NCBI GenBank assembly: GCA_013360865.1
Contig: JABWAS010000001.1
Coordinates: 1-50,647 of the forward strand
DNA from: Candidatus Paceibacter sp.
Lineage (GTDB): Bacteria > Patescibacteriota > Minisyncoccia > UBA9983
Direction of reading: 5' to 3'
DNA: 50,647 nucleotides
A model generated the notes under the pieces. The model made no database searches. It was not told the origin of the DNA and worked only from the letters and a program-made list of their open reading frames with translations. This document shows positions 1-38,006 of this stretch, piece after piece. Every line of letters begins with the position of its first letter. Position 1 is the first letter of the stretch. A program made the position numbers and the translations under genes.

Positions 1-351
1 TGAAACCTTGGCCGATATTTCCGAACCGTCCGTAATTCCATGTATTTTTCTAAGCGAATCCCGCACCGGCCGGAAAACCTGCTCGTTGATGTCTTGGGCA
101 ATCTCCCTTGCCGCCGTTTTGTCCACGCCCAACTTGGCCGACAAATTGGCTATAAATTTATTGGGATGTTCTTCGCCAAGTAAAACCAACCCCGTTTCGC
201 CTCCCAAAATACCGGTTTCATCAACGTTTAACTTATGTTTTTTGCCTATGTCTATTATTTTGTCGGAAATGTTTTCGCTGAAATAGGCCTCCCTTAAATC
301 TTCGGGGAGTTTGAGAAAAATTTCTCTTATTTGTTCGTAGGTGTAGGCCAT
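1..351 (-). CDS. hypothetical protein, 3' end cut by window edge
   Basis: ATG at 351-349 opens a stop-free minus frame that runs exactly to position 1 (117 codons, MAYTYEQIREIFLKLPEDLREAYF...). It begins 27 nt after the stop of the 379..2763 gene, so it is probably the last visible gene of that operon. No family recognised. Confidence 0.55.
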   Translation of the reverse strand, partial: MAYTYEQIREIFLKLPEDLREAYFSENISDKIIDIGKKHKLNVDETGILGGETGLVLLGEEHPNKFIANLSAKLGVDKTAAREIAQDINEQVFRPVRDSLRKIHGITDGSEISAKVS

Positions 352-378
352 AATATATTGTTTTTGATCCTAATTTTC

Positions 379-2763
379 CTAAGTGATAATTTTCCCTTTC
401 CACCTGTTCTTTCTAACCGCATAATCATCCAGCATATCTTTTATTCCCCTGGCCCCTTGCCCTTTCTTAATCAATTTTGCCAATCCGTAATTGCCAAGTT
501 CCTCCAAACTTTTAATCGTATCCTCGTAACTGCCCGCGACACCAGTAAGTCCGTCTAACATTCTTTCCATCATATCGCCACCCATCTCTACTATCTTGTT
601 AATTGAACCGGTATTAAGATATTTGGCCAAACTGGGCTCGGTAAGTATATTGTAGGCGTTTTTCTCCATATCAGAAGAAGACGCTTTTTTGACAACCCCG
701 GCTTTGGCGCGGTAATCAGCCAGCTCTTTTCTAAGCGCCTGGTAATAATCATTGTCTTTGACGGCGTATTTCTTGTCCAACTTGCCGAATCCTTCCGGAT
801 TTTCCGCGTTGTAAGCATTGGACAGCTTCTCGTTAAGGAATTTCTCAAATCCGCCACCGAGTTCCGTTTTAATGGCCGCGGCCATTGCCTTGCCCAAACC
901 TTCGGGGTCGTTAACATAATCTTTCTCAAGTTTTTCTCTGATTTCGTTGTATTTGGCCTCGTTTTCTTCCTTATAAGTATTGAGTAATATTTCTCTTTCA
1001 GTATCATCAGCTTTGCCTTTAACCAAAAACGGCGCCTGTCTTTCTATGTCCTTAGGCTTAATACCAAGACTCTTGAGGAATTCTTTGGATTTTTCAATAT
1101 CACCCGGAGCCATCTTTTTAATATCCTCTTTTTTGATGGATTCCTGCAGCATAGCGGACGTCTCATAAGGACGGAATGTTCTGTTATACCAACCGCCCTG
1201 CATTTTCTTCAGCTCATCGGCTGTGTACTTGCCGTATTTCTTTTGCTTTTCTTCCACTATTTTACGGCTTTCCGTGGCAATATCAGCCGCCTTTCTGGTG
1301 GCGGCATCGCCGGCAAAAGGTACATATCTGGCTACATTTCCAACTTTACCCATAAAACCTTTGCCAGTGGCAAAATTTTCAGCCATAGGCGCATACCATC
1401 GCCTCGCGCCGCCTTTCGCGCCCCACCAGCCGTATTTGGCAGTCCCTGCCGCCGCCCCCTGCGCCCAGCCGCGGGCCGTGTGCGCCCAGCCGATGGACAT
1501 GCTGGCCGTTTTGCCACCCAGTTGCCTAGCCACCATAAGCGAGGCGAGCATAAGCCCAGCCGCGACGAAGAAATGGAAAAACGGCACCAGAATTGAGCCG
1601 GCGTTCAGGCCAAAAGCCAGCTTTAAATTAGAATTTTCCGTGGTCTGCGTAATGCTCTTTAAAAAGTCGCTGTTTATCAGCTTGGTCACCAAGACAAACA
1701 TAAACAGAAAGGCCGGAGCGAAAAACGATTGTCCTATAAGATAACCCCACCACTGGCTGGAATACTTTTTCATACTGGGCAAGACCACCCCTATAATCAT
1801 TATTGGAGAAAACATCATCACCATCCACAAAACCACCACCCGCACCACGAACATAATCGCCCCGGCAAAAAGCACGAAAGCGGCCAATATGGCCAAAGCC
1901 GCCTCCAACAGCACCGGCAGAGCCAGGGTGAACACAGATTCGCTGAAACCCCCTCCCTCGTTATAAGCTTGTTGGATAACGCCTTCTACGCTGTCCGTGC
2001 TGCCTGTTAACATCTGCTGCGGATTAAATGCGGCCATAAAAACATTGCCCAGGTTTTTCTTCTTGAAATCTCCGTTTATTGTAAGGTCGTTTTTGATGTT
2101 GCCCACCGTCCCCCCTTTGTCCGCGTCAATTTGATTATAAAATTCCCAGGCAAAGACATGGGAGGCGTCTATGACCATTTTGGTAATCAGCATGCTGAAG
2201 TTAACCAGCACTGCCGCTACGATTATACTGGGCAAAACTTTTTTAATACTGGCTCCTCCGTACTGCAAAATCATTGATACTGCCAGATACAGAAGGATGA
2301 AAATAAAAACAAGGTTGATCAAATCCCTTACCATCGTCCAGCCCGTGGCTATCATTATGTTTTTTTCTGTGTCAAAAATTTCGCCGGACAAAGAAAATTC
2401 AATACTGGCGTTGAACAAGCTTGATGCCAGGTTGGTGATGAAGACAGCCGCGGGCAAAATCCAATGGACGGCAACATAGAGAAAAAGATAACTGACGCAC
2501 TTTCCGAATGTTCCTCCGGCTATTCCCATAGTCCAGCCGCAAGGATCCTCTATTTCACCGTCTTTGCTGCCCTTATTTTCATTGACCACGCCAAGTCCTT
2601 TTTCTATGCGATCAACGCGCTCTTCTAAGTCATTTGAGTTATTATTCCCGTTATTCCCTTGCTGCTGGGCGTAAACCATACTTAAACCGGAAAACCCCGC
2701 CGGCGCCAAGGCGGGTACAATCACGGAAATTATTAGCAGATATGTGATTATTTTCTTAAACAT
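379..2763 (-). CDS. large polytopic membrane protein with signal peptide and ~330-aa Lys/Glu-rich C-terminal tail (family unknown)
   Basis: Track ORF 379..2781 begins at a GTG. The in-frame ATG at 2763 gives MFKKIITYLLIISVIVPALAPAGFSGLSMVYAQ, a signal-peptide-like N-terminus. This is followed by a QQQGNNGNNNS low-complexity stretch, roughly 8 or more hydrophobic helices, and a charged tail. Confidence 0.8.
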   Translation of the reverse strand: MFKKIITYLLIISVIVPALAPAGFSGLSMVYAQQQGNNGNNNSNDLEERVDRIEKGLGVVNENKGSKDGEIEDPCGWTMGIAGGTFGKCVSYLFLYVAVHWILPAAVFITNLASSLFNASIEFSLSGEIFDTEKNIMIATGWTMVRDLINLVFIFILLYLAVSMILQYGGASIKKVLPSIIVAAVLVNFSMLITKMVIDASHVFAWEFYNQIDADKGGTVGNIKNDLTINGDFKKKNLGNVFMAAFNPQQMLTGSTDSVEGVIQQAYNEGGGFSESVFTLALPVLLEAALAILAAFVLFAGAIMFVVRVVVLWMVMMFSPIMIIGVVLPSMKKYSSQWWGYLIGQSFFAPAFLFMFVLVTKLINSDFLKSITQTTENSNLKLAFGLNAGSILVPFFHFFVAAGLMLASLMVARQLGGKTASMSIGWAHTARGWAQGAAAGTAKYGWWGAKGGARRWYAPMAENFATGKGFMGKVGNVARYVPFAGDAATRKAADIATESRKIVEEKQKKYGKYTADELKKMQGGWYNRTFRPYETSAMLQESIKKEDIKKMAPGDIEKSKEFLKSLGIKPKDIERQAPFLVKGKADDTEREILLNTYKEENEAKYNEIREKLEKDYVNDPEGLGKAMAAAIKTELGGGFEKFLNEKLSNAYNAENPEGFGKLDKKYAVKDNDYYQALRKELADYRAKAGVVKKASSSDMEKNAYNILTEPSLAKYLNTGSINKIVEMGGDMMERMLDGLTGVAGSYEDTIKSLEELGNYGLAKLIKKGQGARGIKDMLDDYAVRKNRWKGKIIT

Positions 2764-2767
2764 TTTA

Positions 2768-5281
2768 TTAAGGCGAAACACTGCTTGTTTGATCGGCTAA
2801 GGCGCAATCATCCGCATCAACATTCTCGTCTTGGGTGTACTCATCCAGCGCGCAAGTGTATTTTATCACGAGCTTGTCCATCTTCTCTTCAATTTTTCCC
2901 GTTTCTTTGCTGACTTCTTTCCACTCTTTCTCACTATGGGTCTGGTAGGTTTTCTTTTCGGAATCAACCGTGGAGATGTTTATTTCTTCCGAAGCTATTT
3001 CTCCGTCGTTGCCGCGGCAGATAATTTTATAATTCGTCTCTGACGCTATTGAACCGGTAGCCGTTTTTTTGGTGGAGTTTGTTTTTTCCTTGCGGTAATA
3101 TCCCTCGCCGACGAAGAAACCAGAATCCGCTTCCAAAGAGTCCGCTTCCGTTATGTAAGCGCTTTCTTCGTCAAGATTGTCTTTGTCCGAGTAGAGATAG
3201 CAGGAAGACGCATTGGAAGAAAGCCAGTAAATATTGGTGGCTGTGTTAACTTCCACAGTGGTGTCGTCCGACAAAATTTCCAGAGAAGCCGGCTCGGCGT
3301 TGCTATCGGCGGCAGTAAGGATGATTTCCTTATCCATGCGGTTGTTGTCCTGGTCGTAACATCTTATGCCGTAAGTTCTTAATTCATCCGTTTTAAACGG
3401 CGGTGTCACATAGCTTCCACTGGTGCCGATGGTTGTGCCGCGCCAAGTCTTTTCTCCTCCGGTCGGGGAGCATTCTTCGGCGCTTACCGCTTTCCAGTGG
3501 ATTCTGGTTGTAGTGGCAAATCCGTTGGAGGCGTTTTTAACGACCGGATTATTTTCAGCGCTCATTTCCTGGCCGGTTTCTCTATTTTTGTTTTTATTGT
3601 TGCGTTTGTTGTAGTCGTAGCAGTAGTGGTCATCGTCTTTCAAGGTCTTTATTTCCCCTATCCTGGTAGCCATCATCACTTCCTCCACGAAAGAATCAAT
3701 TATCTCCAGCGCCCGGGCGGAAACATCAACGGCGGTTAATCCCAAACTCTGGAAAGTTTCTCCGTCCTCAAAAGTTTGCGTGTCGTATGTGTTTTCATAA
3801 TCACTGATTCTTGGCTCAATATCGTTCGTTATGGCCGTCTGAACGCTGGTTCTGTCATTGTTTACGTCATTAATATCTTTGCCCAGCGGGTCAAGATTTT
3901 TGCCAATTTCTTCAATATCGTCGTCGCAGGTTGAATAATCATAACTTGTGTCGCTGGTGCTGGTGGCGTAAATGCAATTAAGTTTAGCCAAAATCGTTCC
4001 CAAATCCTCTTTTGCCCCGTACAAAGCGTCAGATTGGTCTTCCAAAGACCGACCATAATTTTCTTCCCATTCCGTTATCCGGCCGGTTTGGTTGGAAACG
4101 GATTGCTTTTCCTGGGCTAGTTGCTGGTTCTTGCTTAACTCGCCATAGTGATCGCGATTACTGCCGGAATAATTGGCATCCTTATCGTATCCTAACAAGC
4201 CACCCTCTCCATTACCGCCGGTCACAAGCCAACCCATCATAGTAGTAGCCAAGGTGCCGATAATTTCGTCTATTTCGTCAGCAACCTGGAGTCTTTGTTT
4301 ATCTTTGTCAACGACACTGTTAAGCTGGCTTTGAACAAGTTGCCCCGGGGTTTTTGTTTCCCATTTGGCGCATTTCATGCCGTCTTGAAGCTCTGTTTTT
4401 TTGTAAGGATTATCTGGATCAAGAGGATCGTACTCAACTTCTGTTACCATGTTCGGCACTTCTTCAATACATTTCTTTACCCCGAAAAATCCGGAGTTTA
4501 ATTTAAGCTGGAAGCCGCCCATTTCCACGCTCACCCGCGCGGCGGCGTAAGCGTTATCCGCCGCTTGGACCACACGGCCCACATCATTATTCTTGGGCTT
4601 GGTGCTCATCAGCCACATTAAAAATCCTCCGTTCCTAAAGTCGTTGCCGTATTCGCGGACAATATTGTTTTGGCGGATATTAACATCAATATCCAACCAA
4701 TCGCTTATATCATCCCTATCCGCCATGTTTTGGAAATTATCCACAATGTCGTTGAAAGTACACCTATATTTTGCCCTGTCGGTGCCGGGGAAAAAGAAGT
4801 CCATTTTGATACGCAATGGTCCTATCGGCTCGCACAACCATTCCAAATCCATTTTGTCTATTATGGCCCCGCTGACCTGGTTGGCCGTGTCGCGGAAAAA
4901 CCCTTCCGGGTCGCTAAGAAACATCGGACTCCCTTCAAAACCGTTCTGGATCCAGGTCACCAACGCGTCGCCGAACTGGTCTATGATAACGTTGGCGGCC
5001 GTCCAGGCGAGACCGTCAAGCCATGTTTCTTTGTTGGATAAAACTGTAGTATTACCTGCGGTTGTAGCGGAAGAACCAGCAATCATACTTAAAGTGGCGT
5101 TTCTGGTTATGCTAGTCGGAGAAGAATCCATAAGAATATCGTCCACAATGACATTACCATCAATTCCGGTGGCAAATAATTCTAATGGGGCAAATAAGTT
5201 ATAAAAGACAAAAAAGAAAGAAATGATCGCAAATACATTTCTTCTCATTCTTTTTTTTACTGTGAAAAAATCAGAAAACAT
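2768..5281 (-). CDS. 837-aa N-terminally anchored or secreted protein with two C-terminal beta-sandwich-like repeats (family unknown)
   Basis: Long ORF with one N-terminal hydrophobic helix (VFAIISFFFVFYNLFAPLELFA). Two C-terminal modules share a W-x(6-8)-C ... Y-x-I-x-C pattern (IHWKAVSAEEC...YGIRC; IYWLSSNASSC...YKIIC). An alternative ATG at 5248 is possible. Confidence 0.8.
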   Translation of the reverse strand: MFSDFFTVKKRMRRNVFAIISFFFVFYNLFAPLELFATGIDGNVIVDDILMDSSPTSITRNATLSMIAGSSATTAGNTTVLSNKETWLDGLAWTAANVIIDQFGDALVTWIQNGFEGSPMFLSDPEGFFRDTANQVSGAIIDKMDLEWLCEPIGPLRIKMDFFFPGTDRAKYRCTFNDIVDNFQNMADRDDISDWLDIDVNIRQNNIVREYGNDFRNGGFLMWLMSTKPKNNDVGRVVQAADNAYAAARVSVEMGGFQLKLNSGFFGVKKCIEEVPNMVTEVEYDPLDPDNPYKKTELQDGMKCAKWETKTPGQLVQSQLNSVVDKDKQRLQVADEIDEIIGTLATTMMGWLVTGGNGEGGLLGYDKDANYSGSNRDHYGELSKNQQLAQEKQSVSNQTGRITEWEENYGRSLEDQSDALYGAKEDLGTILAKLNCIYATSTSDTSYDYSTCDDDIEEIGKNLDPLGKDINDVNNDRTSVQTAITNDIEPRISDYENTYDTQTFEDGETFQSLGLTAVDVSARALEIIDSFVEEVMMATRIGEIKTLKDDDHYCYDYNKRNNKNKNRETGQEMSAENNPVVKNASNGFATTTRIHWKAVSAEECSPTGGEKTWRGTTIGTSGSYVTPPFKTDELRTYGIRCYDQDNNRMDKEIILTAADSNAEPASLEILSDDTTVEVNTATNIYWLSSNASSCYLYSDKDNLDEESAYITEADSLEADSGFFVGEGYYRKEKTNSTKKTATGSIASETNYKIICRGNDGEIASEEINISTVDSEKKTYQTHSEKEWKEVSKETGKIEEKMDKLVIKYTCALDEYTQDENVDADDCALADQTSSVSP

Positions 5282-6251
5282 TTTTTTTCACTAAAATTTC
5301 TTTAACGCTTTCAAAACCACCGGAAAATTTTTCCACTTCTTGCTTGTAAATCCTGTATCCCAATAATCCCTTTATGGAATCTTCCGGCGCGGTGGCCATC
5401 AATTTAACAGCCTCACTCATGTTGTTTAGGCCATTGATTAAATCAAGGTGGTCTTTAGCCAATTCTTCCGGCACATCCAATTGTCTTAGCTCAGCCAAAG
5501 CGCCGTTATATATTTCCGTTATTTCCAAAAGTTTTTTTACGTCATTGCTGTAATTAACCCCCTCTTTATTTTTAAGGTTCTCCATTAAACGCCCGAAGAT
5601 GACCACCTCGTTTTCTTTTATTTTTTTGTCGTCAACAAGCAATTTTTTAACAGTTATAGAGTATTTTCTGAGATTTTCTTGCCCATTGTCCGCTATTTTT
5701 ATATTAGAAACGTTGTAAGTATCGGTAGGTCTGTTACTGCTCATCTGCAACATGAGTGATTCTACTAAGCTTTCTTTATCTTTGTTAGTTAATTCACCCT
5801 TCTGCTGTTTAATCAGCAAATACTCCGTTAAAAACTGTTTGGCGTAAGCGGCGGTCATTGTGTTTAAGTCGGCGCCGGAGGAGCTTTTGTTTTGAGCGAT
5901 CAGATCTTCTTTTTGGCCGATTTTATCGTCCGGGCCGGCTTTGAGCGGGTTTCGGTTTTGGGCTATTTCTTCGTTGTCTTCCGCGCCGTCGCCGTCGGTG
6001 TCTTTTTTATTCGGGTCGGTTTTCCAAAGAGTCTCCTCCCAGTCTTTTAAACCGTCGCCGTCGGTGTCGGATTCGTACATAGCTCCGTTTTCCGTCGTGG
6101 TAGCGACGGTCAATATTTTTTGCGCTTCTTCTTTTTTGGCCAGATATTCCAAATCGCCTTTTTCGTACTTGGCATAATAAAACCAGCCGGCAAATATCAG
6201 CAGGATAAAAATTATTAAAAATATGATTTTCTTGCCCGGTAAGTAAGCCAA
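5271..6251 (-). CDS. membrane-anchored protein with two thrombospondin-type-3-like Ca-binding motifs
   Basis: The 326-aa ORF has a TTG start with no nearby ATG and an N-terminal TM helix (IIFLIIFILLIFAGWFYY). It carries DTDGDGLKDWEE and DTDGDGAEDNEE (DxDxDG) motifs. Its stop lies 11 nt inside the next gene if that gene starts at 5281. Confidence 0.7.
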   Translation of the reverse strand: MAYLPGKKIIFLIIFILLIFAGWFYYAKYEKGDLEYLAKKEEAQKILTVATTTENGAMYESDTDGDGLKDWEETLWKTDPNKKDTDGDGAEDNEEIAQNRNPLKAGPDDKIGQKEDLIAQNKSSSGADLNTMTAAYAKQFLTEYLLIKQQKGELTNKDKESLVESLMLQMSSNRPTDTYNVSNIKIADNGQENLRKYSITVKKLLVDDKKIKENEVVIFGRLMENLKNKEGVNYSNDVKKLLEITEIYNGALAELRQLDVPEELAKDHLDLINGLNNMSEAVKLMATAPEDSIKGLLGYRIYKQEVEKFSGGFESVKEILVKKNVF

Positions 6252-6356
6252 AGCGACGGCACTTTGCCGTATGTTAATTATACCTTTTGCGAGAGATAAT
6301 TTCCTTTAAAAATCAGGAAAAAATGTGGATAAGTCGCCCATCAAAAAACTCAACCA

Positions 6357-6377
6357 TGTCAAGGTCTCGCCTTGACA
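6357..6377. repeat. REP-like hairpin, copy 1 (8-bp stem, 5-nt loop)
   Basis: TGTCAAGG-TCTCG-CCTTGACA, 28 nt upstream of the transposase-like start codon. Confidence 0.85.
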
Positions 6378-6405
6378 ACCGCTTCGTTCTTTATAAAATT
6401 AAGCA

Positions 6406-7092
6406 ATGAGCAGAAAAATAAATTTTTCACCGGGAGAAAACTACCATATTTATAATCGTGGTAATGACAAAAGGGTAATTTTTCAAAACAAAGCAGATTA
6501 TGACAGATTTACTGCTTTGTTATACATATGCAATGGAACGAAAGATATAAAATTAAGCGATTATCCGAACATCAAAATGGAAAAACTGCTAGAAATAAAA
6601 AGGGGAGAAACTCTCGTTGATATAGGAGCATATTGTTTAATGCCTAATCATTTTCATTTGCTTATACATGAAAAAACCGAGGGCGGTATAAGTAAGTTTA
6701 TGCAAAAATTGCTCACTGCTTATACGATGTATTTTAATAAGAAAAACGAAAGAACAGGGGTATTATTTGGCGGATTATTTAAAGCAACCCATGTCAACGA
6801 AGACCGTTATTTAAAATATCTCCTCTCGTACATTCATTTAAACCCAATTAAGCTCATTGAGCCAGCATGGAAAGAAACAGGTATCAAAAACAAAAAAGGG
6901 GCTGATCTTTTTCTTAAATCTTACATTTATTCCAGTTTTCTGGATTTCACTGTGGAAAAAAGGAAAGAGCTTGTTATTCTTAATAAGAACCAGTTTCCTG
7001 AATACTTTGAAAATTTTAAAGAGTTCGAAGTTTTTATTGAAAATTGGCTTATGTTTTCCAACGACAACCCCACTGTCAAGGCGAGACCTTGA
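6406..7092 (+). CDS. IS200-like / REP-associated tyrosine transposase (RayT-like, Y1 HUH family)
   Basis: HUH motif in CLMPNHFHLLIHE. C-terminal Tyr motif YLLSYIHLNPIK, typical of the YxxxNP helix in RayT/transposase_17 proteins. 228 aa with an ATG start. Confidence 0.8.
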   Translation: MSRKINFSPGENYHIYNRGNDKRVIFQNKADYDRFTALLYICNGTKDIKLSDYPNIKMEKLLEIKRGETLVDIGAYCLMPNHFHLLIHEKTEGGISKFMQKLLTAYTMYFNKKNERTGVLFGGLFKATHVNEDRYLKYLLSYIHLNPIKLIEPAWKETGIKNKKGADLFLKSYIYSSFLDFTVEKRKELVILNKNQFPEYFENFKEFEVFIENWLMFSNDNPTVKARP

Positions 7093-7097
7093 CAGTG
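7071..7097. repeat. REP-like hairpin, copy 2 (inverted; 11-bp stem); likely also a bidirectional terminator
   Basis: CACTGTCAAGG-CGAGA-CCTTGACAGTG. It overlaps the convergent stop codons of the transposase-like gene (7090-7092) and rsmA (7076-7078). Confidence 0.85.
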
Positions 7098-7936
7098 TTT
7101 AAACACTTCCAGTCTTCCAGGTCTAAATCTTCGGCTCTCGCTTTTTCAGCTATGCCGCAGGCGGCAAAATTTTCTTTTTTCGCGCCTAGGTTGCTCAAAA
7201 GCAACTTCCTTTTGTGGGCGAAGCCTTTTCTGACCGTTTCAAAAAAATTTTTCTCATCCAAATCTTTAAAAAATTCTTTGGAAATGCCGGAGATTCTGAT
7301 AACCGCCGAATCCACTTTTGGCTGGGGAATGAAATTGCCCTTGGAAACTATCCTTATTATCTCCGGCCGGCCGTAAGTTTTAACGCTTATGGAAAGAAGG
7401 CTCTCTTTGACGGGAAAAGAAACTTGCCTTCTGGAAAAATTTCCTCCTTCGTCAGTTTTGTAAAAAGACGAGTTTCTTTTCCCGCACTTTTTTCCCAAAC
7501 CAATAATCCTATCCGCCACCTCTTTTTGGATCATCAAGACCATCAAAACTGGCTGAGGTTCCTCGCTCAAAAATTTTCGCAAAAAAAATGAGGTAATATA
7601 ATAAGGCAGGTTGGCAATAATTTTATAACCGCCAATGTCAAGGTTGAACCTTGACATTGGGTCAAATGCCAAAATATCGCCTGAAATAACATCCAGCCTC
7701 CCGTTGTTAATTTCAGCGGAAAATTTTTCTTTTAAAAATTCTACAAGCTCCTCGTCTTTCTCTACCGCTATCACTTTTTTAGCCCTTTGCAGAAGCAACT
7801 CCGTCAAAACACCCTTTCCTGGGCCGACTTCCAGAACAGTATCATCGGGGCTAACTTTCCCCGCCGCGACTATTTCTTCGGCGATTTTTTGGGAATTGAG
7901 AAAATTCTGCCCAAGTGATTTTTTAGCTTTCAGCAT
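7076..7936 (-). CDS. rsmA: 16S rRNA (adenine1518/1519-N6) dimethyltransferase RsmA/KsgA
   Basis: SLGQNFL motif, SAM-binding VLEVGPGKGVLT, and NLPYYITS motif. 286 aa. Confidence 0.9.
   Translation of the reverse strand: MLKAKKSLGQNFLNSQKIAEEIVAAGKVSPDDTVLEVGPGKGVLTELLLQRAKKVIAVEKDEELVEFLKEKFSAEINNGRLDVISGDILAFDPMSRFNLDIGGYKIIANLPYYITSFFLRKFLSEEPQPVLMVLMIQKEVADRIIGLGKKCGKRNSSFYKTDEGGNFSRRQVSFPVKESLLSISVKTYGRPEIIRIVSKGNFIPQPKVDSAVIRISGISKEFFKDLDEKNFFETVRKGFAHKRKLLLSNLGAKKENFAACGIAEKARAEDLDLEDWKCLNTVKVSP
7632..7660. repeat. REP-like hairpin, copy 3, inside the rsmA coding sequence
   Basis: CCAATGTCAAGG-TTGAA-CCTTGACATTGG (12-bp stem). Same TGTCAAGG/CCTTGACA arms as copies 1 and 2. It is translated in-frame as part of ...PMSRFNLDIGG... 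Confidence 0.8.
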
Positions 7937-8074
7937 AAAAAATAAATTCGAAATCCTAATATCGAAATTCGAAACAAATTCTAATTTTTTAAATTTTAAA
8001 TTCTAAACTTTTTGTCATTTGAATTTTAAATTTTGATATTGTTTCGGATTTCGTGCTTCGCGCTTCGGATTTAA

Positions 8075-10018
8075 TCAGCCATATCTTATCACTTCTTCCG
8101 GCGGTTCGCCCCGAAACTCCTCCATTTTGTACAAATAGTCGGGGATGTCGGACAAAAAGCGGGACGGCATATTCATCTGCCGGCCGCCGTAAATCATGCG
8201 CGAAACGGCGAAAGACAAAAACAGTTTTTCTTTTGCTCTTGTCACCGCCACGTAAAAAAGCCTCCTTTCCTCCTCATCCCTCTCCCTGTCGCGCGAGCCC
8301 ATGCCGGAATGTGGGAACAACCCCTCTTCCAACCCGACGATGAAAACGTTTTTAAACTCAAGCCCTTTGGCGGCGTGCGCCGTCATCAGCCGCACTTTTT
8401 CCTCTTTATTTTCTATCGCGTCCTGCGCGCTCATCAAAGAAGCGTCTTCCAATAATTTCTGGACGCCCTCCGGCTCCGGCAGGTTGTCGTATCTGGTGGC
8501 GATGCTCACCAACTCCTTCAGGTTTTCCAGCCGTTCCTTGTCGGTACTATCTCCATTTTCCAGAAGTTCTTCCAAGCCCGATTTTTTAATGATAAAACTT
8601 ATCGCCGCCGAGGCTTTTTCTTTTCCGGTGTTTTCTTTAATGGAGTCCAGCAGGGCGAAAAAGTCCTCAAACTTTTTCTCCATCGCCGCCGGAAGTTTTT
8701 TGCCGGAAAATTTGTTCAACAAGGAAACTTTGCCTATCCCCCGCGACGGAACGTTGACCGCCCTTTTGACGCTCAATAAATCCTCTCTGTTTAACGCCGC
8801 CCGCAGGTAAGCCAGCACGTCTTTGATTTCCTTTCTTTCGTAAAACTGGGTGCCCAGCATTTGGTAGGCTATGCCGTGCTTGAGGCAGGCCTCCTCAAAC
8901 ACCCGCGACTGGAAGTTAGCGCGAAACAACACGGATATTTCCGAGGGCGAGCCGCCCCGCGCCAAAATTTCTTTTATCTTATGGGCGACAAACTCCGCCT
9001 CCTCGTACTCGCCCATCGCCTCAAACAGCGATATCTCGGCGCCTTTTTGGTTTTTAGTGTAAAGACCTTTCGGCTTGCGGACTTTGTTCTTCTCTATGAT
9101 TTTTGCCGCCGCTTCCAGGATGTTTTGAGTGGAACGGTAATTTTCTTCCAGCGCCACAGCCACGTGTTCCGGATAGTCCTTCTCAAAATTGATGATGTTG
9201 CGGAAGTCGGCCCCGCGGAAAGCGTAGATACACTGGTCCATATCGCCCACGGCGCAGATGTTTTTGTGTCTGGCGGCAAGAATCTTGGACAGCTCGTACT
9301 GGCTTTTGTTGGTGTCTTGATATTCGTCTATGAGGATATAGTCCCACAAATTTTGATAATAATCCCTTACTTCCGCGTCTTTTTTGAGCAGAAAAACCAC
9401 CTTGGAAACAAGGTCGTCAAAGTCCAGGGCTTTATGCTCTCGCAGATTTTCTTCGTACTTTTTCCAGATTTTTCCCAACACGGAGCCGAAGAAATCGGAA
9501 CCGGCTTCGGCAAAATATGATTCGGCGTCAAACAAATCCCCTTTCTGCCGCGAGATGAGCGACTGCATTTTGTTGGGCTGGAACTGCTTCGGGTCAATGC
9601 TTAATTCTTTAATCGCCTCTTTGACCATATCAAGACTGTCTTCTTTGCTTAAAATGGAAAAGTTGGCCGGAACGCCGACTTTGCTCCCGTGCTTTTTTAA
9701 AATATAAACCCCGAGCGAATGGAACGTGCTCACAAATGGATGCTGCCGTTTCCAAGGACCGTCCTTGGAATTGCCCACAACCTGAATTTTTTCCAGCAAT
9801 CCAAACACCCTCTCCCTCATCTCTCCGGCCGCTTTGTTGGTAAAGGTGATGGCCAAAATTTTTTCCGGCGCTACGCCTTGGCTTGCCATGTGGGCAATGC
9901 GGTGGCTGATGCTTTTGGTCTTGCCCGAACCGGCTCCGGCCAGCACCAAAAGCGGTCCGTCTTTATGCAAAACGACTTTCTTCTGCGCTTCATTGAGCCC
10001 GTTCAATAAAAAATCCAT
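8075..10018 (-). CDS. pcrA: ATP-dependent DNA helicase, UvrD/PcrA family
   Basis: Walker A AGAGSGKT, LNEAQ motif, DEYQDT, and C-terminal VTRAK motif. 647 aa. Confidence 0.9.
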   Translation of the reverse strand: MDFLLNGLNEAQKKVVLHKDGPLLVLAGAGSGKTKSISHRIAHMASQGVAPEKILAITFTNKAAGEMRERVFGLLEKIQVVGNSKDGPWKRQHPFVSTFHSLGVYILKKHGSKVGVPANFSILSKEDSLDMVKEAIKELSIDPKQFQPNKMQSLISRQKGDLFDAESYFAEAGSDFFGSVLGKIWKKYEENLREHKALDFDDLVSKVVFLLKKDAEVRDYYQNLWDYILIDEYQDTNKSQYELSKILAARHKNICAVGDMDQCIYAFRGADFRNIINFEKDYPEHVAVALEENYRSTQNILEAAAKIIEKNKVRKPKGLYTKNQKGAEISLFEAMGEYEEAEFVAHKIKEILARGGSPSEISVLFRANFQSRVFEEACLKHGIAYQMLGTQFYERKEIKDVLAYLRAALNREDLLSVKRAVNVPSRGIGKVSLLNKFSGKKLPAAMEKKFEDFFALLDSIKENTGKEKASAAISFIIKKSGLEELLENGDSTDKERLENLKELVSIATRYDNLPEPEGVQKLLEDASLMSAQDAIENKEEKVRLMTAHAAKGLEFKNVFIVGLEEGLFPHSGMGSRDRERDEEERRLFYVAVTRAKEKLFLSFAVSRMIYGGRQMNMPSRFLSDIPDYLYKMEEFRGEPPEEVIRYG

Positions 10019-10754: not shown

Positions 10755-11762
10755 ATGGCCCTACTTTTAGGAGCTGTTTTCTTTTTAGGGCAGGTTAACC
10801 TCGCGGAGGCCGGCTTTTTCTACTTTGGCTCCAGTGCCGAAGCCTCCAAACTCGGGCTTGCCTCAAAAAAAGAAACGGCCAACCTGCAAACGATGCCTCT
10901 TCTGGAAAGTTCTTTAAGCTACGAGGTCAGCAACCATAAAGGGGGCGGAGAAATTGCCATAGTCAACAACAACTCGCTTCTTCCGGAGTCCGGCCCGCTT
11001 GGCACCATGGCCGACGTGGAAGAATTAAACAGCGACTGGCAGATCAATGTTTATGTGGTGCGCGAGGGTGACACCTTATCACAGATAGCCCAGATGTTCG
11101 GAGTTTCCGTCAATACCATAATCTGGTCAAACGACATCTCCCGCGGCAGCTCCATCAAGCCGGGGCAAACGCTGGTCATTCTCCCAATCACCGGAGTAAA
11201 GTACGAAGTCAAAAAAGGAGATACGCTTAAGAGTATCGCCAAGAAACTCAACAGCGACGTGGACGAAATAATAAAATTCAACGGCCTGGACGCCGACGGG
11301 CAACTGGCAGTCGGGGAAACGATAATCGTTCCCAACGGCGAGATGCCGGCGCCGTCCGCCCCCAAAACAACCAGACCGGGGTCTAATCCCTATCGCGGCG
11401 GCAGCGGCCCTTCTTACGCCGGTTATTACATGAAACCGATTGCCGGCGGAGTAAAATCTCAAGGCTTGCACGGATACAACGGCGTTGACCTGGCCAACTC
11501 CTGCGGCACTCCGGTTTTAGCCTCCGCTTCCGGCGACGTTATCATCAGCAAAGCGGCCGGCTGGAACGGCGGTTACGGCAATTATATTGTCGTATCTCAC
11601 TCCAACGGCACCCAGACTTTATACTCACATCTTTCCACTAATATTGTTTATCCAGGCTGGCGCGTCAGCCAGGGTCAGGTCATCGGCTACGTCGGCTCCA
11701 CCGGCAAATCCACCGGCTGCCATCTGCACTTTGAAGTCAGAGGCGCGAAAAACCCCTTCTAG
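10755..11762 (+). CDS. secreted LysM-domain M23 metallopeptidase
   Basis: Signal peptide, two LysM-like repeats (YVVREGDTLSQIA; YEVKKGDTLKSIA), and M23 motifs GVDLA...GNYIVVSH...GCHLHFEV. Confidence 0.9.
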   Translation: MALLLGAVFFLGQVNLAEAGFFYFGSSAEASKLGLASKKETANLQTMPLLESSLSYEVSNHKGGGEIAIVNNNSLLPESGPLGTMADVEELNSDWQINVYVVREGDTLSQIAQMFGVSVNTIIWSNDISRGSSIKPGQTLVILPITGVKYEVKKGDTLKSIAKKLNSDVDEIIKFNGLDADGQLAVGETIIVPNGEMPAPSAPKTTRPGSNPYRGGSGPSYAGYYMKPIAGGVKSQGLHGYNGVDLANSCGTPVLASASGDVIISKAAGWNGGYGNYIVVSHSNGTQTLYSHLSTNIVYPGWRVSQGQVIGYVGSTGKSTGCHLHFEVRGAKNPF

Positions 11763-29437: not shown

Positions 29438-30505
29438 TTATTTTCTCCCTTTATTATGAAACGATTTATGCACGTCCCGTAGTTGTTTGTCGGTGATGTG
29501 GGTGTAGATTTGGGTGGTGGAGATGTTGGAGTGGCCGAGCATGGTTTGGACGGCGCGAATGTCGGCGCCGTTGGAGAGTAGGTCGGTGGCGAAGCAGTGG
29601 CGGATGACGTGCGGCGTGACTTTTTTGGAAATTCCAGCTTCTGTGGCGCGTTGTTTGATCATGCGCTCCACGGAGCGGGGAGTAAGGCGAGAAACATTGC
29701 CGGAACTGGGAAATTGGTTTCCTTGAGAACGGTCATAACGGGGAATTCTCCGGAAACCAACTTTCCCAGTTCCGGCTGATACAAACAATGCTTCTTCCGT
29801 GTCTGTTCTCTTGTCCAAATAATTTTTAAGCGCTTGCTTGGCTGTTTCTGATATGAAAACTACTCTTATCTTGCCACCCTTGCCGCGGATGGAAATTTCG
29901 CCGTTTTTAGCTTCGCTGAAAGAGTCGCGGTTTAAAGCGCAAAGCTCGGAAACGCGCAAGCCGGTGGAGAAAAGGAGTTCCAAAATGGCTTTGTCGCGCA
30001 AATTTCTTGGGTTGTTGCCATTGCTTTTTTGGCTGGCGGAGGAAAAAGATGCCTCCGGAGAATTCCCCGTTATGACCGTTCTCAAGGAGGCGCTTTTTCC
30101 TCCGCCAGCCACCATGAGCGGCGCGTCAAGAAGTCTTTGCAACTCCTCTGCCGTTATCAAATCCAAATCCCTTTGCGGCGTTTTGGCCAGCTCAATCCTT
30201 TCCGGCGGCAGGGAGGCAATGTTTCTCTTGGCCAGATATTTAAGAAAAACCCTCAAGGCGATTAAGTAATAATTCTGCGTTTTTTTATTTAAATTACCGC
30301 CGCTGTTTTTCTCTTCGCGGTTAAGGAAAAGGCGGTACTTCCTGACAGTTTCGTCGTCTATTTGGGAAGGGGAGGAAACTTTGGCAAAGCCCAAAAACTT
30401 ACTCAAATACCGGTCGTAATTTTCTACCGTTTTTAGGCTGCGGCCTTTTTCCACCTCTAAATATTCAAGAAACTCCCGGTGAAGCTCTTTGAGGTTGTGC
30501 GGCAT
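29438..30505 (-). CDS. tyrosine recombinase XerC/XerD-like, carrying two in-frame palindromic insertions
   Basis: N-terminal SAM-like domain. Catalytic residues RVSE..., HVIRHCFAT and GHSNISTTQIYTH are present. 355 aa, roughly 55 aa longer than typical owing to two inserts. Confidence 0.85.
   Translation of the reverse strand: MPHNLKELHREFLEYLEVEKGRSLKTVENYDRYLSKFLGFAKVSSPSQIDDETVRKYRLFLNREEKNSGGNLNKKTQNYYLIALRVFLKYLAKRNIASLPPERIELAKTPQRDLDLITAEELQRLLDAPLMVAGGGKSASLRTVITGNSPEASFSSASQKSNGNNPRNLRDKAILELLFSTGLRVSELCALNRDSFSEAKNGEISIRGKGGKIRVVFISETAKQALKNYLDKRTDTEEALFVSAGTGKVGFRRIPRYDRSQGNQFPSSGNVSRLTPRSVERMIKQRATEAGISKKVTPHVIRHCFATDLLSNGADIRAVQTMLGHSNISTTQIYTHITDKQLRDVHKSFHNKGRK
29699..29776 (+). 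repeat. palindromic element A inside xerC (78 bp)
   Basis: GCCGGAACTGGGAAATTGGTT-[CCTTGAGAACGGTCATAACGGGGAATTCTCCGGA]-AACCAACTTTCCCAGTTCCGGC. The flanks pair with each other. The 34-nt core is at 29721-29754. Confidence 0.85.
30031..30110 (-). repeat. palindromic element B inside xerC (80 bp, opposite orientation)
   Basis: GGCTGGCGGAGGAAAAAG ... CTTTTTCCTCCGCCAGCC form perfect 18-bp arms. The identical 34-nt core lies at 30054-30087 in reverse complement. Confidence 0.85.
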
Positions 30506-36350: not shown

Positions 36351-36815
36351 TTAAGCTAGCGGCCTAATCACCACACGGCGGTACGGCTCATCGCCGACGC
36401 TTTCCGTCTTAATGTCCGGATATTCGCCCAAAACGGCGTGGACTATCCGGCGGTCGTAAGACGACATCGGGTCCATCTCTATCTCTTTTTTGAAAAATCT
36501 TACTCTTTGAGCGTTCATTCTGGCCATATTTTTGACTTCTTCTATTTTCTTGATCTGATAGTTGTTTACATCAAGAAAGAAAGCCAGTTTCTCCAGATTT
36601 TCCTGTTTAAACCGGTTTTCGGCCATTTTTTTAACCAGATGATTTAAGGCGATGAGATGTTTGCCGTCTTCGCCTATTAAAATTCCCGATTCTTTGGTTT
36701 TTATGGAGAAGACGCAGTCTCCGTCGCCGTTAACATACTCCACACTGCCGGCGATGGTCATTTTGTCAAGAAATTCTTCCAGCAGCGATATTATTGTTTT
36801 GACTTGGTTCTCCAT
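36351..36815 (-). CDS. jag: Jag/KhpB-like RNA-binding protein (KH + R3H)
   Basis: C-terminal R3H motif SSYDRRIVHAVL...YRRVVIRP. Overlaps the yidC 3' end by 50 nt, so the true start may be internal. Confidence 0.75.
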   Translation of the reverse strand: MENQVKTIISLLEEFLDKMTIAGSVEYVNGDGDCVFSIKTKESGILIGEDGKHLIALNHLVKKMAENRFKQENLEKLAFFLDVNNYQIKKIEEVKNMARMNAQRVRFFKKEIEMDPMSSYDRRIVHAVLGEYPDIKTESVGDEPYRRVVIRPLA

Positions 36816-37533
36816 ATATTTTTTCCGCCTTTCTGCGCACTATGGCTTCATGTACTATAGCAAAAACATTCATCGTCGTCCAATAAAGAGCCACGCCGGC
36901 GGAAAACTTTAGACCGATGAAAAATATGAACACCGGCATCACGTATCTCATCTGCACGTTCATGCTTTTCGCCAGGCTGTCTTTGAAAGAATCTCCGAGT
37001 TTTTCCTTTTTAAGCGGCGGCATGGCTAGCTTCATCTGGAAAAACTGCGACAAAGAGGCTAAAAAGGCTATTACATAGCTGTTGTTTTTGGTTACATCCA
37101 CCAAACCAAGAAACATTGTGTTGATGTTTTCCGGAATGGACACAAAAGAATAGATGTGTTCCTGGTCAAAATTAACCCCGCCAAGAAAAACTTTGTACAA
37201 AGCGAAGATTATCGGGATCTGGATAAACAACGTCAGGATGCCGGAAAGGGGATTGATGCCGTGTTGGCGGTACAGTTCCATGGTTTTGCGCGCCTGCGCC
37301 TGGGGGTCGTTTTTGAAATTGGATTTTATCTCCTTAAGCTGCGGCTCAATCTTTTTCATCTTTATCTGGGTGGTGGTGGATTTGTGGGTGAACGGGAAAA
37401 TGACAAAACGCACCAAGACGGTCAAAACAATTATAGCCAGGCCGATATCATGAAAGGGGAGATAATTAACCAGCGACACCAAACCGTTTAAAAGCGGCTC
37501 GTAAAAAACCGTGTTGTAAAAATTTGAAATCAT
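36766..37533 (-). CDS. yidC: membrane protein insertase YidC (short form)
   Basis: 255 aa with five hydrophobic helices and LYRQHGINPLSG and YWTTMN motifs. Confidence 0.9.
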   Translation of the reverse strand: MISNFYNTVFYEPLLNGLVSLVNYLPFHDIGLAIIVLTVLVRFVIFPFTHKSTTTQIKMKKIEPQLKEIKSNFKNDPQAQARKTMELYRQHGINPLSGILTLFIQIPIIFALYKVFLGGVNFDQEHIYSFVSIPENINTMFLGLVDVTKNNSYVIAFLASLSQFFQMKLAMPPLKKEKLGDSFKDSLAKSMNVQMRYVMPVFIFFIGLKFSAGVALYWTTMNVFAIVHEAIVRRKAEKIYGEPSQNNNIAAGRIS

Positions 37534-37868: not shown

Positions 37869-38006
37869 TTGATTTTCTTAAGTCTAAAACAATAACCTAG
37901 TCAGTCAATATTCACTAGTTATCCACAGGATATTAAGATGATATACACCTTTTTGATTTTTTGAAGTATTAATAAGGAAAAAACATTTAGTATAATACTA
38001 ATCAAT
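37869..38006. promoter_or_regulatory. oriC-associated spacer upstream of dnaA with a perfect DnaA box
   Basis: TTATCCACA at 37919-37927. TATAAT at 37991-37996, 10 nt before the dnaA ATG. Confidence 0.6.

What the first reader, a model, noticed from the sequence alone, without database searches (positions are those of the whole stretch)
1..6251. Tightly packed four-gene operon of large, unrecognisable envelope proteins
Four genes run consecutively on the minus strand with gaps of 27 nt or less, or short overlaps. The first is a TM-anchored protein with two DxDxDG (thrombospondin-type-3-like) calcium motifs. The second is an 837-aa exoprotein ending in two W...C...YxIxC beta-sandwich-like repeats. 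The third is a ~795-aa protein with a signal peptide, an Asn/Gln-rich spacer, about 8 or more TM helices and a ~330-aa Lys/Glu-rich cytoplasmic tail. The fourth is a small conserved-looking tail gene. I recognise no catalytic motif or named family in any of them. A polytopic pore-like membrane protein paired with a giant surface protein resembles VirB6/TrbL-type or adhesin-export modules. In a putative episymbiont this could be a host-attachment or transfer apparatus. That functional reading is inference from topology only.
Basis: partly seen in the sequence, partly recalled or inferred. Interest (0 to 1): 0.7.

Follow-up and report, generated by a model that had tools for sequence, protein, structure and literature searches.

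The report
Front half of a Patescibacteria T4SS operon
These four genes are the first part of a longer operon for the type IV secretion machine that ultrasmall Patescibacteria carry on their chromosome: one is the VirB6 channel protein, and the other three are conserved partners that nobody has named yet.

Summary
However, the window edge cuts the operon. In sister contigs it continues with PrgI/VirB3, a TrsD-like protein, the VirB4 ATPase, an Ig-repeat protein, a VirB2-like pilin and a beta-propeller protein.

Gene 3 is an extended VirB6/TrbL protein. Its own Pfam TrbL score is just below threshold, but 13 of 42 relatives match and its neighbours are T4SS genes.

The gene order g1-g2-g3-g4-PrgI-TrsD-VirB4 holds in nearly all of 80 Patescibacteria species genomes. 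The system itself is already published (Wang 2023; Quinonero-Coronel 2025).

Still new:
- g1 (TSP3 calcium sites plus a helical ectodomain), g2 and g4 are unassigned in the published catalogue.
- g2 belongs to a family of more than 5,700 sequence clusters. It has a four-cysteine N-domain and swappable lectin/Ig C-terminal modules. Some members have a VirB5/TraI-like mature N-terminus.
- Two otherwise identical strains carry unrelated VirB6 tails and g4 N-domains, imported by recombination.

Function as a host-contact or exchange machine is inferred, not shown.

The parts
5271..6251 (-). g1: bitopic membrane protein of 326 aa. N-terminal TM helix (nt 6165-6236), two invariant TSP3-type Ca2+ motifs (nt 5940-6074), and an all-helical C-terminal ectodomain (nt 5286-5864). 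It is the first gene of the conserved T4SS block.
   Evidence: Pfam TSP3_bac E=1.1e-10. 611 homologues. D62/D64/D66/G67 and D84/D86/D88/D92 are invariant in 65 sequences. AF2 mean pLDDT is 80, and above 90 in the helical domain. No Foldseek PDB hit with E below 0.1. Found upstream of g3 in 56 of 57 loci.
2768..5281 (-). g2: secreted or anchored 837-aa protein. Signal/anchor (nt 5183-5239); conserved four-Cys N-domain (aa ~95-370, nt 4172-4999); long helices (nt 3632-4150); two Ig-like beta-sandwiches (nt 2963-3571). Candidate adhesin or stalk-tip component.
   Evidence: No Pfam or NCBIfam hit. The family has 5,703 representative clusters at E<=1e-3. W110, F115, P119, C150, C174, G264, C271, C304, P312 and G313 are invariant. 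AF2 model and Foldseek search. Relatives carry F5/8 type C lectin modules (19 of 62) or Ig-like modules. Adjacent to g3 in 47 of 57 loci and in two distant loci, L093 and L094.
379..2763 (-). g3: extended VirB6/TrbL-family protein of 794 aa (800 aa from the GTG at 2781). Signal peptide and N/Q-rich spacer; polytopic core (nt 1528-2490); 382-aa Lys/Glu-rich hydrophilic tail (nt 382-1527).
   Evidence: Pfam TrbL at E=1.1e-4, below the curated cutoff. 13 of 42 relatives hit TrbL. The consensus covers the whole TrbL model. Relatives carry precomputed PF04610 or PF19590, and one is named 'type IV secretion system protein'. Hydrophobicity scan. Next to PrgI and VirB4.
1..351 (-). g4 (5' part only; the full gene is 214 aa in L001 at 7678-8322). 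No signal peptide or TM segment. It has a ~100-aa helical N-domain, a disordered Pro/Glu/Lys-rich linker, and a nearly invariant C-terminal DPYREP motif that lies outside the window.
   Evidence: Translation. Present between VirB6 and PrgI in 53 of 54 loci. Family sequences. No Pfam or PDB-sequence match.
102..3569 (-). Strain-variable recombined cassette. It spans the C-terminal half of g2, all of g3 and the first ~85 codons of g4. Everything around it is 99.7-100% identical between two strains.
   Evidence: blastn of the window against L004/L005/L006. Per-gene protein identities. dS is 0 in g1 and g2 codons 1-360. It is mostly 0.2-1.3 in the rest of g2 (two 60-codon stretches are 0.03 and 0.08), and 0.6 to saturated in g3. 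Both alleles are seen in several independent assemblies.
10755..11762 (+). LysM + peptidase M23 cell-wall hydrolase. The equivalent gene, 8 genes upstream of VirB3, is the one the published catalogue lists as the Paceibacteria 'VirB1' (context only, not part of the finding's coordinates).
   Evidence: Pfam Peptidase_M23 2.9e-29 and LysM 1.7e-27. Same position in L004. Table S3 of PMC12102498 lists a LysM-containing 'VirB1' (FATA_cd419a) 8 genes before VirB3 in GCA_000990165.1.

Best explanation
The four genes are the promoter-proximal part of a chromosomal operon of at least 10 genes. It encodes the type IV secretion system typical of Paceibacteria-class Patescibacteria, which is related to monoderm MPF-FATA systems.

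Operon order: g1, g2, g3 (VirB6), g4, [optional 23S_rRNA_IVP cassette], PrgI/VirB3, TrsD-like (VirB4 N-domain paralogue), VirB4 ATPase, [a 185-aa ORF seen in only 2 of 87 loci, including L004], Ig-repeat protein, VirB2-like pilin, TM + beta-propeller protein.

Shown:
- g3 is an extended VirB6/TrbL protein, meaning a polytopic core plus a large hydrophilic C-terminal domain.
- g1, g2 and g4 are fixed members of the block across dozens of species.

Inferred mechanism:
- VirB6, VirB3 and VirB4 form the membrane translocon and pilus platform.
- g1, with its N-terminus inside, a Ca2+-binding TSP3 pair and a helical ectodomain outside, is an envelope scaffold. It would fill the bitopic-protein role that VirB8 plays elsewhere, though it is not homologous to VirB8.
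- g2 is exported and stabilised by two disulfides. It docks through its conserved N-domain and presents a helical stalk plus exchangeable Ig/lectin modules to the host surface, acting as an adhesin and possibly as a VirB5-like tip.
- g4 is a cytoplasmic partner of the VirB6 tail.

By analogy with Southlakia epibionticum, where T4SS genes are essential for epibiotic growth (PMC12102498, PMC12857230), the machine mediates host contact and exchange rather than conjugation.
For: - Downstream genes come from L001 (100% identical to the window) and L004: PrgI, TraC_F_IV/TraC-like, DUF87/P-loop_TraG (VirB4), T4SS_pilin.
- TrbL signal in g3 and its family.
- Synteny in 80 species-level genomes: g1 in 56 of 57, g2 in 47 of 57, g4 in 53 of 54, PrgI in 54 of 54, VirB4 in 54 of 54. 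Two distant g2 relatives lie in the same arrangement.
- Overlapping or near-abutting stop and start codons.
- Published Table S3 shows VirB6, one unassigned gene, VirB3, TrsD, VirB4, one unassigned gene, VirB2 in the same order.
- KsgA and dnaA/dnaN lie nearby, as reported for Paceibacteria.
- No relaxase or VirD4-like gene among the large ORFs of the window, including all ORFs of 340 aa or more.
- Export features of g1 and g2: signal/anchor, four invariant Cys, Ca2+ motifs.
- Adhesin-type modules in g2 relatives.
Against: - The window's own g3 scores below Pfam's TrbL gathering threshold. It finds no VirB6 chain by sequence in the PDB, and hhalign against the single A. tumefaciens VirB6 sequence is uninformative.
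- The conserved N-domain of g2 could not be modelled (pLDDT below 50).
- The g1 ectodomain has no structural neighbour, and g4 has no detectable relatives of known function. Their roles are therefore inferred from position, topology and domain type only.
- The topology of the g3 tail was not computed with a dedicated predictor.
- No experiment exists for any Paceibacteria T4SS. The essentiality data come from a different class, Saccharimonadia.
Confidence: 0.85

Rival explanations
1. The cluster is the mating-pair-formation module of an integrated conjugative element and transfers DNA.
For: Its VirB4, PrgI and TrsD components are homologous to monoderm conjugation machinery (PMC12102498). An IS200-like Y1 transposase gene lies directly upstream of g1. 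A tyrosine recombinase lies at 29438-30505.
Against: No relaxase or VirD4-type coupling protein was found among the large ORFs of the 50-kb window, including all ORFs of 340 aa or more, or in the 21-kb L004 locus. The block sits between housekeeping genes (KsgA, UvrD, PNPase) about 32 kb from dnaA/dnaN. It keeps the same neighbours in other species. The recombinase has the XerC/D-type domain pair. The literature finds relaxases in only 103 Patescibacteria genomes.
Confidence: 0.05
2. g1 and g2 (with or without g4) are an independent envelope or adhesin module that merely happens to lie next to the T4SS genes.
For: None of the three has a profile match to a named T4SS component. The published catalogue does not list them.
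Against: Adjacency on the same strand is kept in 56 of 57 (g1), 47 of 57 (g2) and 53 of 54 (g4) loci spanning many candidate phyla-level lineages. It is also kept at about 20% protein identity. Coding regions overlap or abut. g4 lies between VirB6 and VirB3.
Confidence: 0.04
3. The machine is a T4SS, but it works as an uptake device. It would import DNA or other host molecules, like H. pylori ComB or the archaeal Ced system, rather than secrete.
For: No coupling protein lies nearby. Patescibacteria lack nucleotide and lipid synthesis, and reviewers speculate about uptake through the pilus. In ABY1-class genomes T4SS genes lie next to competence genes.
Against: In S. epibionticum the comEC mutant loses competence but stays viable, while the T4SS is essential. 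Nothing in this window bears on the direction of transport.
Confidence: 0.15

Closest known systems
Patescibacteria (CPR) T4SS, as catalogued by Quinonero-Coronel et al. 2025 (PMC12102498) and shown essential in Southlakia epibionticum (Wang et al. 2023, as cited in PMC12857230)
   Same: Same component set and order (VirB6, VirB3/PrgI, TrsD, VirB4, VirB2-like pilin). Chromosomal location near KsgA and dnaA/dnaN. No relaxase or coupling protein nearby. LysM/M23 'VirB1' a few genes upstream.
   Different: The catalogue leaves the g1, g2 and g4 slots unassigned. It detects VirB6 in only 480 proteins, against 2,474 virB4 genes. Here the three extra genes are shown to be near-universal members of the block in the Paceibacteria-type arrangement.
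Extended-VirB6 subfamily (F-plasmid TraG, Rickettsiales VirB6 paralogues, MPF-FA VirB6 proteins of 700-900 aa; reviewed in PMC12857230)
   Same: A polytopic TrbL/VirB6 core followed by a large hydrophilic C-terminal domain, with a total length of 794 aa.
   Different: The tail has no detectable similarity to any named domain. It exists as unrelated allelic types within one species, and those types are shared across species. The F TraG C-domain sets entry-exclusion specificity (my own knowledge, not tested here). Whether this tail has a comparable specificity role is unknown.
Enterococcus pCF10 prg/pcf T4SS (MPF-FATA prototype)
   Same: The core order prgH (VirB6), prgI (VirB3), prgJ (VirB4) matches g3, PrgI, VirB4. 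Surface adhesin genes lie upstream of the channel genes. It has a monoderm architecture without VirB7/9/10 (gene order from my own knowledge).
   Different: pCF10 has no VirB2-like pilin, no TrsD paralogue, and nothing like g1, g2 or g4. It is plasmid-borne and conjugative, with a relaxase and coupling protein.
VirB5 / TrbJ / Bacteroidetes TraI (Pfam DUF4141): the secreted protein encoded just upstream of VirB6 in diderm T4SS operons
   Same: g2 occupies the same slot. It has a Sec signal and a helical region. In a subset of its family the mature N-terminus carries the [IVLF]xDxxNxxQ motif. That stretch is the one the 53-position DUF4141 model matches in relative P0279, and A. tumefaciens VirB5 ('QFVVSDPATEAE') fits the relaxed form of the motif.
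   Different: g2 is 3-4 times longer. Its conserved four-Cys N-domain has no VirB5 counterpart. The window's own copy has a degenerate motif. No profile match reaches significance.

Membership tests
VirB6/TrbL (Pfam PF04610, PF19590) | Profile match to the TrbL/VirB6 domain above the curated threshold | tested here: inconclusive
   The window protein scores 22.5 bits against a cutoff of 25.9, E=1.1e-4. 13 of 42 homologues hit at E<=0.01, the best at 5.7e-8. Eight homologues carry precomputed PF04610 or PF19590. The family consensus aligns to profile positions 5-213 of 215 at E=6e-4.
VirB6/TrbL (Pfam PF04610, PF19590) | Polytopic membrane protein with five or more hydrophobic helices | tested here: met
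   A Kyte-Doolittle scan finds a signal peptide plus seven hydrophobic segments between residues ~92 and 412.
VirB6/TrbL (Pfam PF04610, PF19590) | Encoded within a T4SS cluster next to VirB3 and VirB4 | tested here: met
   L001 and L004 context. 54 of 54 related loci have PrgI and VirB4 downstream.
VirB6/TrbL (Pfam PF04610, PF19590) | Fold and pentameric assembly like TrwI/VirB6 in the R388 structure | not tested
The profile search of PDB sequences found no VirB6 chain.
Extended-VirB6 subfamily | Large hydrophilic domain appended to the VirB6 core, total length about 700-900 aa | tested here: met
   794 aa with a 382-aa tail after the last TM segment. Lys+Glu is 24% over residues 471-800 of the 800-aa GTG form. 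Definition taken from PMC12857230.
Patescibacteria-type T4SS (MPF-FATA-related) | VirB4 together with a TrsD-like paralogue, PrgI/VirB3 and a VirB2-like pilin in one cluster | tested here: met
   L004: PrgI 4e-9, TraC_F_IV 3.2e-8, P-loop_TraG 5.9e-25, T4SS_pilin 1.1e-6, all above their cutoffs. These genes lie just outside the window.
Patescibacteria-type T4SS (MPF-FATA-related) | VirB4 falls in the Patescibacteria clade of the VirB4 tree | not tested
   No VirB4 phylogeny was built. The gene is outside the window.
Patescibacteria-type T4SS (MPF-FATA-related) | Chromosomal location, no relaxase or T4CP nearby, close to KsgA and dnaA | tested here: met
   KsgA at 7076-7936, dnaA at 38007-39389, dnaN at 39632-40732. 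No relaxase or VirD4 domain in the large ORFs of the window, including all ORFs of 340 aa or more.
VirB5 / TrbJ / TraI (DUF4141) | Profile match to PF07996, TIGR02780 or PF13605 | tested here: not met
   The window g2 has no hit at E<=1, and neither does the family consensus. Only 3 of 62 relatives hit DUF4141 (best 1.5e-4) and 2-3 hit TrbJ (about 0.003), the latter in the coiled-coil part.
VirB5 / TrbJ / TraI (DUF4141) | Secreted protein encoded immediately upstream of VirB6, with the conserved mature N-terminal motif | tested here: inconclusive
   The gene position is met. The strict motif is found in 15 of 177 relatives against 0.4 expected by shuffling. The relaxed motif is found in 18 of 177 against 1.3 expected. 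In the window's copy the motif is degenerate (GNVIVDDILMD).
VirB8 / PrgL / TraM (NTF2-like bitopic T4SS subunit), considered for g1 | NTF2-like alpha+beta periplasmic domain | tested here: not met
   The AF2 model (mean pLDDT 80) is all-helical after the TM segment. Foldseek against the PDB gives no hit below E=0.1 and no VirB8-like chain among the 50 best matches shown.
Bacterial TSP3 repeat (PF18884), for g1 | DxDxDGxxDxxE calcium-binding repeats matching the profile above threshold | tested here: met
   41.6 bits against a cutoff of 25, in two stretches. The acidic residues are invariant in 65 homologues.

The most novel reading that the evidence does not exclude
Two linked ideas make up this reading.

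1. The g2 family is the missing VirB5-like stalk/tip adhesin of the Patescibacteria T4SS pilus. It would have a conserved docking domain with a VirB5/TraI-type mature N-terminus, fused to exchangeable host-binding modules (Ig-like, fucolectin-type).

2. The VirB6 C-terminal tail and the N-domain of g4 form a co-inherited, allelically exchangeable cassette. This cassette, together with the g2 C-terminus, would set strain-level specificity of the machine, for example host range, kin recognition or exclusion.
Probability: 0.3. Interest if true: 0.7.

Novelty: new member of a known kind. Interest (0 to 1): 0.45.

Why it matters
The Patescibacteria T4SS is the first T4SS reported as essential for the survival of the bacterium that carries it. 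Its substrate, direction of transport and way of recognising hosts are all unknown.

This locus adds three things:
- The Paceibacteria-type machine has three further fixed components that current HMM catalogues miss.
- One of them, g2, is a very large family with exchangeable lectin/Ig modules. That makes it a concrete candidate for the adhesin or pilus tip, which published surveys say they could not find.
- The VirB6 tail, the g4 N-domain and the g2 C-terminus are swapped by recombination between otherwise identical strains. This is the pattern expected for a specificity determinant.

Together these give defined targets for structure prediction, pull-downs and population genomics.

Tried and rejected
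- An exact-sequence look-up of the 837-aa g2 found nothing. The window copy carries a 48-nt deletion relative to other assemblies.
- Profile searches of PDB sequences with the g3, g1, g2 and g4 families gave only low-complexity, TSP3-motif or lectin-module hits.
- The AF2 model of g2 left the conserved N-domain unmodelled. Foldseek therefore saw only the Ig-like pair.
- The g1 model was confident but has no structural neighbour. The idea that g1 is the missing VirB8 homologue was rejected.
- hhalign of the family profiles against single A. tumefaciens VirB5 and VirB6 sequences had no power. It scored under 1% probability even for VirB6, so this says nothing either way.
- hmmsearch of the family HMMs against Ti VirB5, TrbJ, VirB6 and TrbL gave only a few bits, in coiled-coil regions.
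- Family consensus sequences run against Pfam confirmed TrbL for g3 and found nothing for g2, g1 or g4.
- The promoter/terminator scan gave counts no higher than shuffled sequence.
- A peptidoglycan-hydrolase (VirB1) role for g2 was considered and dropped. There is no invariant His or catalytic-type motif, and the four invariant Cys look structural.
- P0003, P0004 and P0005 turned out to come from other species, not from further alleles of this species.

Full report
**What is in the window.** The minus strand carries three complete ORFs and one cut ORF.
- g1: 5271-6251, 326 aa, TTG start.
- g2: 2768-5281, 837 aa.
- g3: 379-2781, 800 aa from the GTG start. The 794-aa form from the ATG at 2763 is the one held in databases as P0001.
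- g4: starts at 351 and is cut by the window edge.

The junctions are an 11-nt overlap, a 4-nt gap (or a 14-nt overlap from the GTG start) and a 27-nt gap.
- g1 has one TM helix and two DxDxDG motifs at residues 62 and 84. Pfam calls them TSP3_bac at E=1.1e-10.
- g2 has an N-terminal hydrophobic segment and two W..C...YxIxC units at 596-641 and 686-755.
- g3 has a signal peptide, a QQQGNNGNNNSN spacer, seven further hydrophobic segments and a tail with 24% Lys+Glu.

**The operon does not end at gene 4.**
- A Logan contig that is 100% identical to the window (L001) continues past the window edge. So does a 91-kb MAG contig of 'Candidatus Pacebacteria' (L004, GCA_023150695.1, 99.7% identical in the flanks).
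- The continuation runs: full-length g4 (214 aa), a 23S_rRNA_IVP-family gene, PrgI (VirB3-like) and a TraC_F_IV/TraC-like 210-aa protein. That last protein is the TrsD-type VirB4 N-domain paralogue.
- Next come a 611-aa DUF87/P-loop_TraG VirB4 ATPase and a 185-aa ORF (seen in only 2 of 87 loci). After these come a 330-aa Ig-repeat protein, a T4SS_pilin (VirB2-like) protein, a 411-aa TM + beta-propeller protein and a Laminin_G_3 protein.
- The finding is therefore the 5' part of a T4SS operon.

**Identity of g3.**
- The window protein hits Pfam TrbL/VirB6 at E=1.1e-4, which is 22.5 bits, just under the 25.9-bit cutoff.
- Its 83 homologues all come from Parcubacteria/Paceibacteria-type MAGs where a name is given. 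Eight carry precomputed PF04610 or PF19590, and one is named 'type IV secretion system protein'.
- Scanned one by one, 13 of 42 members hit TrbL, the best at 5.7e-8. The family consensus aligns over TrbL positions 5-213 of 215.
- With its polytopic core and 382-aa hydrophilic tail, g3 fits the 'extended VirB6' subfamily described in PMC12857230.
- Sequence searches of the PDB and hhalign against the single A. tumefaciens VirB6 sequence were uninformative.

**Synteny.**
- A scan of one genome per GTDB species with the g3 alignment returned 258 relatives, of which 80 loci were kept. Nearly all carry Patescibacteria-type labels, including Terry-, Kaiser-, Taylor-, Giovannoni-, Zambryski-, Lloyd-, Campbell-, Nomura- and Yonathbacteria. 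A few are labelled only 'bacterium', and one 1.6-kb contig is labelled Gammaproteobacteria.
- HMMs for each gene were run on six-frame ORFs of these loci. They give one order on one strand: g1-g2-g3-g4-PrgI-TrsD-VirB4-Ig protein-pilin-propeller protein.
- Of 57 loci with at least 4.5 kb upstream, 56 have g1 and 47 have g2 adjacent. Eight others have an unassigned gap of 1.4-3.8 kb at that position.
- Of 54 loci with at least 5.5 kb downstream, 53 have g4, 54 have PrgI and 54 have VirB4.
- Two g2 relatives at about 20% identity (P0281, P0383) also sit directly upstream of TrbL-domain genes, followed by the same genes.

**Relation to the literature.**
- Quinonero-Coronel et al. 2025 (PMC12102498) describe exactly this system. 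It has a Patescibacteria VirB4 clade related to MPF-FATA, with TrsD, VirB3/PrgI, VirB6 and VirB2-like pilins nearby. Relaxase and coupling protein are usually absent or distant, and the cluster lies near dnaA, dnaN and ksgA in Paceibacteria.
- The window matches. KsgA is at 7076-7936, dnaA at 38007-39389 and dnaN at 39632-40732. No relaxase or VirD4 was found among the large ORFs scanned, which include all ORFs of 340 aa or more.
- Their Table S3 lists, for one genome, VirB6 (gene 531), nothing for 532, VirB3 (533), TrsD (534), VirB4 (535), nothing for 536, and VirB2 (537). For another genome it lists a LysM-containing 'VirB1' eight genes before VirB3. That position corresponds to the LysM/M23 gene at window 10755-11762.
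- The slots of g1, g2 and g4 are unassigned there. The paper also states that no adhesins were detected and that VirB8 is mostly missing.
- The review PMC12857230 notes that the Southlakia T4SS is essential for epibiotic growth and may build a pilus.

**g1.**
- It has 611 homologues, and the two Ca2+ motifs are invariant.
- AlphaFold2 (mean pLDDT 80) gives a TM helix, the TSP3 loops and an all-helical domain spanning residues 130-322 with pLDDT above 90.
- Foldseek against the PDB finds nothing below E=0.1. It is therefore not an NTF2-like VirB8.
- Lys7-Lys8 before the TM helix suggest the N-terminus is inside and the C-terminal domain outside.
- I read g1 as a system-specific envelope scaffold. 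This is inference.

**g2.**
- No Pfam or NCBIfam hit.
- A full HMM search of 1.84 billion representatives finds 5,703 proteins at E<=1e-3, and 1,590 at E<=1e-30. They match mainly profile positions ~10-480.
- Invariant residues include W110, F115, P119, C150, C174, G264, C271, C304, P312 and G313. The four Cys suggest two disulfides in an exported domain.
- C-terminal modules vary. F5/8 type C lectin occurs in 19 of 62 members, and Ig-like, SdrD_B and InlK-type domains in a few. The family profile matches fucolectins in the PDB at 7e-16.
- In the window copy, AF2 models long helices (378-550) and two beta-sandwiches at pLDDT 70-90. The N-domain stays below 50. Foldseek finds only generic Ig/FN3 tandems.

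**A VirB5 lead for g2.**
- Three of 62 relatives hit Pfam DUF4141.
- In Bacteroides annotation tables, DUF4141 is listed next to traJ within the conjugative-transposon tra gene block. From my own knowledge it is TraI, and TraJ is the VirB6-like protein of those elements; neither point was tested here.
- The match in relative P0279 covers residues 18-48, which is the end of the signal peptide plus the mature N-terminus '..AQWAVLDAGNIAQSTITA' (24.1 bits, cutoff 30).
- The motif [IVLF]xDxxNxxQ occurs right after the signal peptide in 15 of 177 full-length relatives, against 0.4 expected from shuffling. A relaxed form occurs in 18 of 177 against 1.3 expected. It also fits the mature N-terminus of A. 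tumefaciens VirB5, 'QFVVSDPATEAE'.
- Against this: the window's copy is degenerate (GNVIVDDILMD). The consensus has no profile hit. The weak TrbJ hits fall in coiled-coil sequence.
- The lead is open, not established.

**g4.**
- It has no signal peptide or TM segment.
- It consists of a ~100-aa helical N-domain, a linker of variable length and low complexity, and a nearly invariant C-terminal DPYREP motif.
- There are no Pfam or PDB relatives.

**Strain-level cassette.**
- Between the window and L004, DNA is 99.7% identical from window position 12500 down to 3570.
- Identity then falls to 91.6% in the g2 C-terminal part, 87.5% at the start of g3 and about 80% in the g3 core. No match is detectable from 1433 to 102, which covers the g3 tail and the g4 N-domain. 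Identity returns to 99% at 102-1.
- Protein identities are g1 100%, g2 97.9%, g3 61% over 574 aa with the tails unalignable, g4 79%, the IVP protein 99%, PrgI 100% and TrsD 97.6%.
- dS is 0 in g1 and the first 360 codons of g2. It is mostly 0.2-1.3 in the rest of g2, in a mosaic pattern where two 60-codon stretches are only 0.03 and 0.08. In g3 it runs from 0.6 to saturated, with dN/dS about 0.1 in the membrane core.
- This points to import by recombination, not local hypermutation.
- Both alleles are seen in several independent assemblies: 3 contigs plus the window for one, 16 contigs for the other.
- The window-type tail is shared at about 40% identity with other species (L089, L091) and has conserved motifs.
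- The window's g4 N-domain is closer to those species (65-67%) than to its own species' other allele (55%). Its C-part is 100% identical to that other allele.
- Across 53 loci, tail similarity correlates with g4 N-domain similarity after controlling for the VirB6 core (partial Mantel r=0.25, p about 5e-4). The same statistic is 0.15 for PrgI and -0.01 for the g4 C-part.
- Physical linkage could explain this as well as functional coupling could.

**Verdict.** The system is a member of an already described kind. The open items are the three unassigned conserved components, the possible VirB5-like nature of g2, and the recombining VirB6-tail/g4 cassette.

Noticed in passing
L005 9040-9505 compared with L006 9047-9078; also L001 8370-8675, L004 12917-13222, L053 (4 copies): A small 23S_rRNA_IVP-family gene (a four-helix-bundle protein of 100-117 aa) behaves as a presence/absence cassette in the intergenic spacers of the T4SS operon. 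It occurs in 24 of 87 loci and in different slots. Between near-identical strains, a ~430-bp insert flanked by imperfect inverted repeats replaces a 32-nt spacer. There is no copy inside the window.
   Followed up: partly
window ~3569 (g2 codon 571/572): The window lacks 48 nt, encoding the 16 aa ICGLFGESAASGELNV, which include a family-conserved Cys. Three independent and otherwise identical contigs (L001-L003) have this stretch. It is either a deletion variant or an assembly error, and it leaves g2 with an odd number of Cys (13).
   Followed up: partly
window 6406-7092 (+): An IS200-like Y1 transposase gene sits between KsgA and g1, divergent from g1. It has the best sigma-70-like promoter match of the region (6372-6399, 11 of 12). 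It is present in both strains of this species but not at that position in other species (L089, L094).
   Followed up: partly
window 6256-6270: A perfect 6-bp hairpin (ACGGCA-AAG-TGCCGT on the coding strand) lies 5 nt upstream of the g1 TTG start codon. It might affect translation initiation or mark a transcript end on the other strand.
   Followed up: no
window 47230-48900 (-): A PilB-like T2SSE ATPase (E=9e-120) lies in the same window. A type IV pilus/T2SS ATPase is therefore encoded about 41 kb from the T4SS block. The flanking 381-aa ORF (49064-50209) has no Pfam hit.
   Followed up: no
window 36766-40732: YidC, dnaA and dnaN lie here (a likely rnpA/rpmH ORF at 37530-37868 was not scanned). 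This places the T4SS operon about 32 kb from the probable replication origin, as the literature reports for Paceibacteria.
   Followed up: partly
L094 7955-13236: In a distant relative, the VirB6-like protein is 1,201 aa and the g4-slot protein is 547 aa. The hydrophilic extensions of both proteins therefore vary widely in size between lineages.
   Followed up: no
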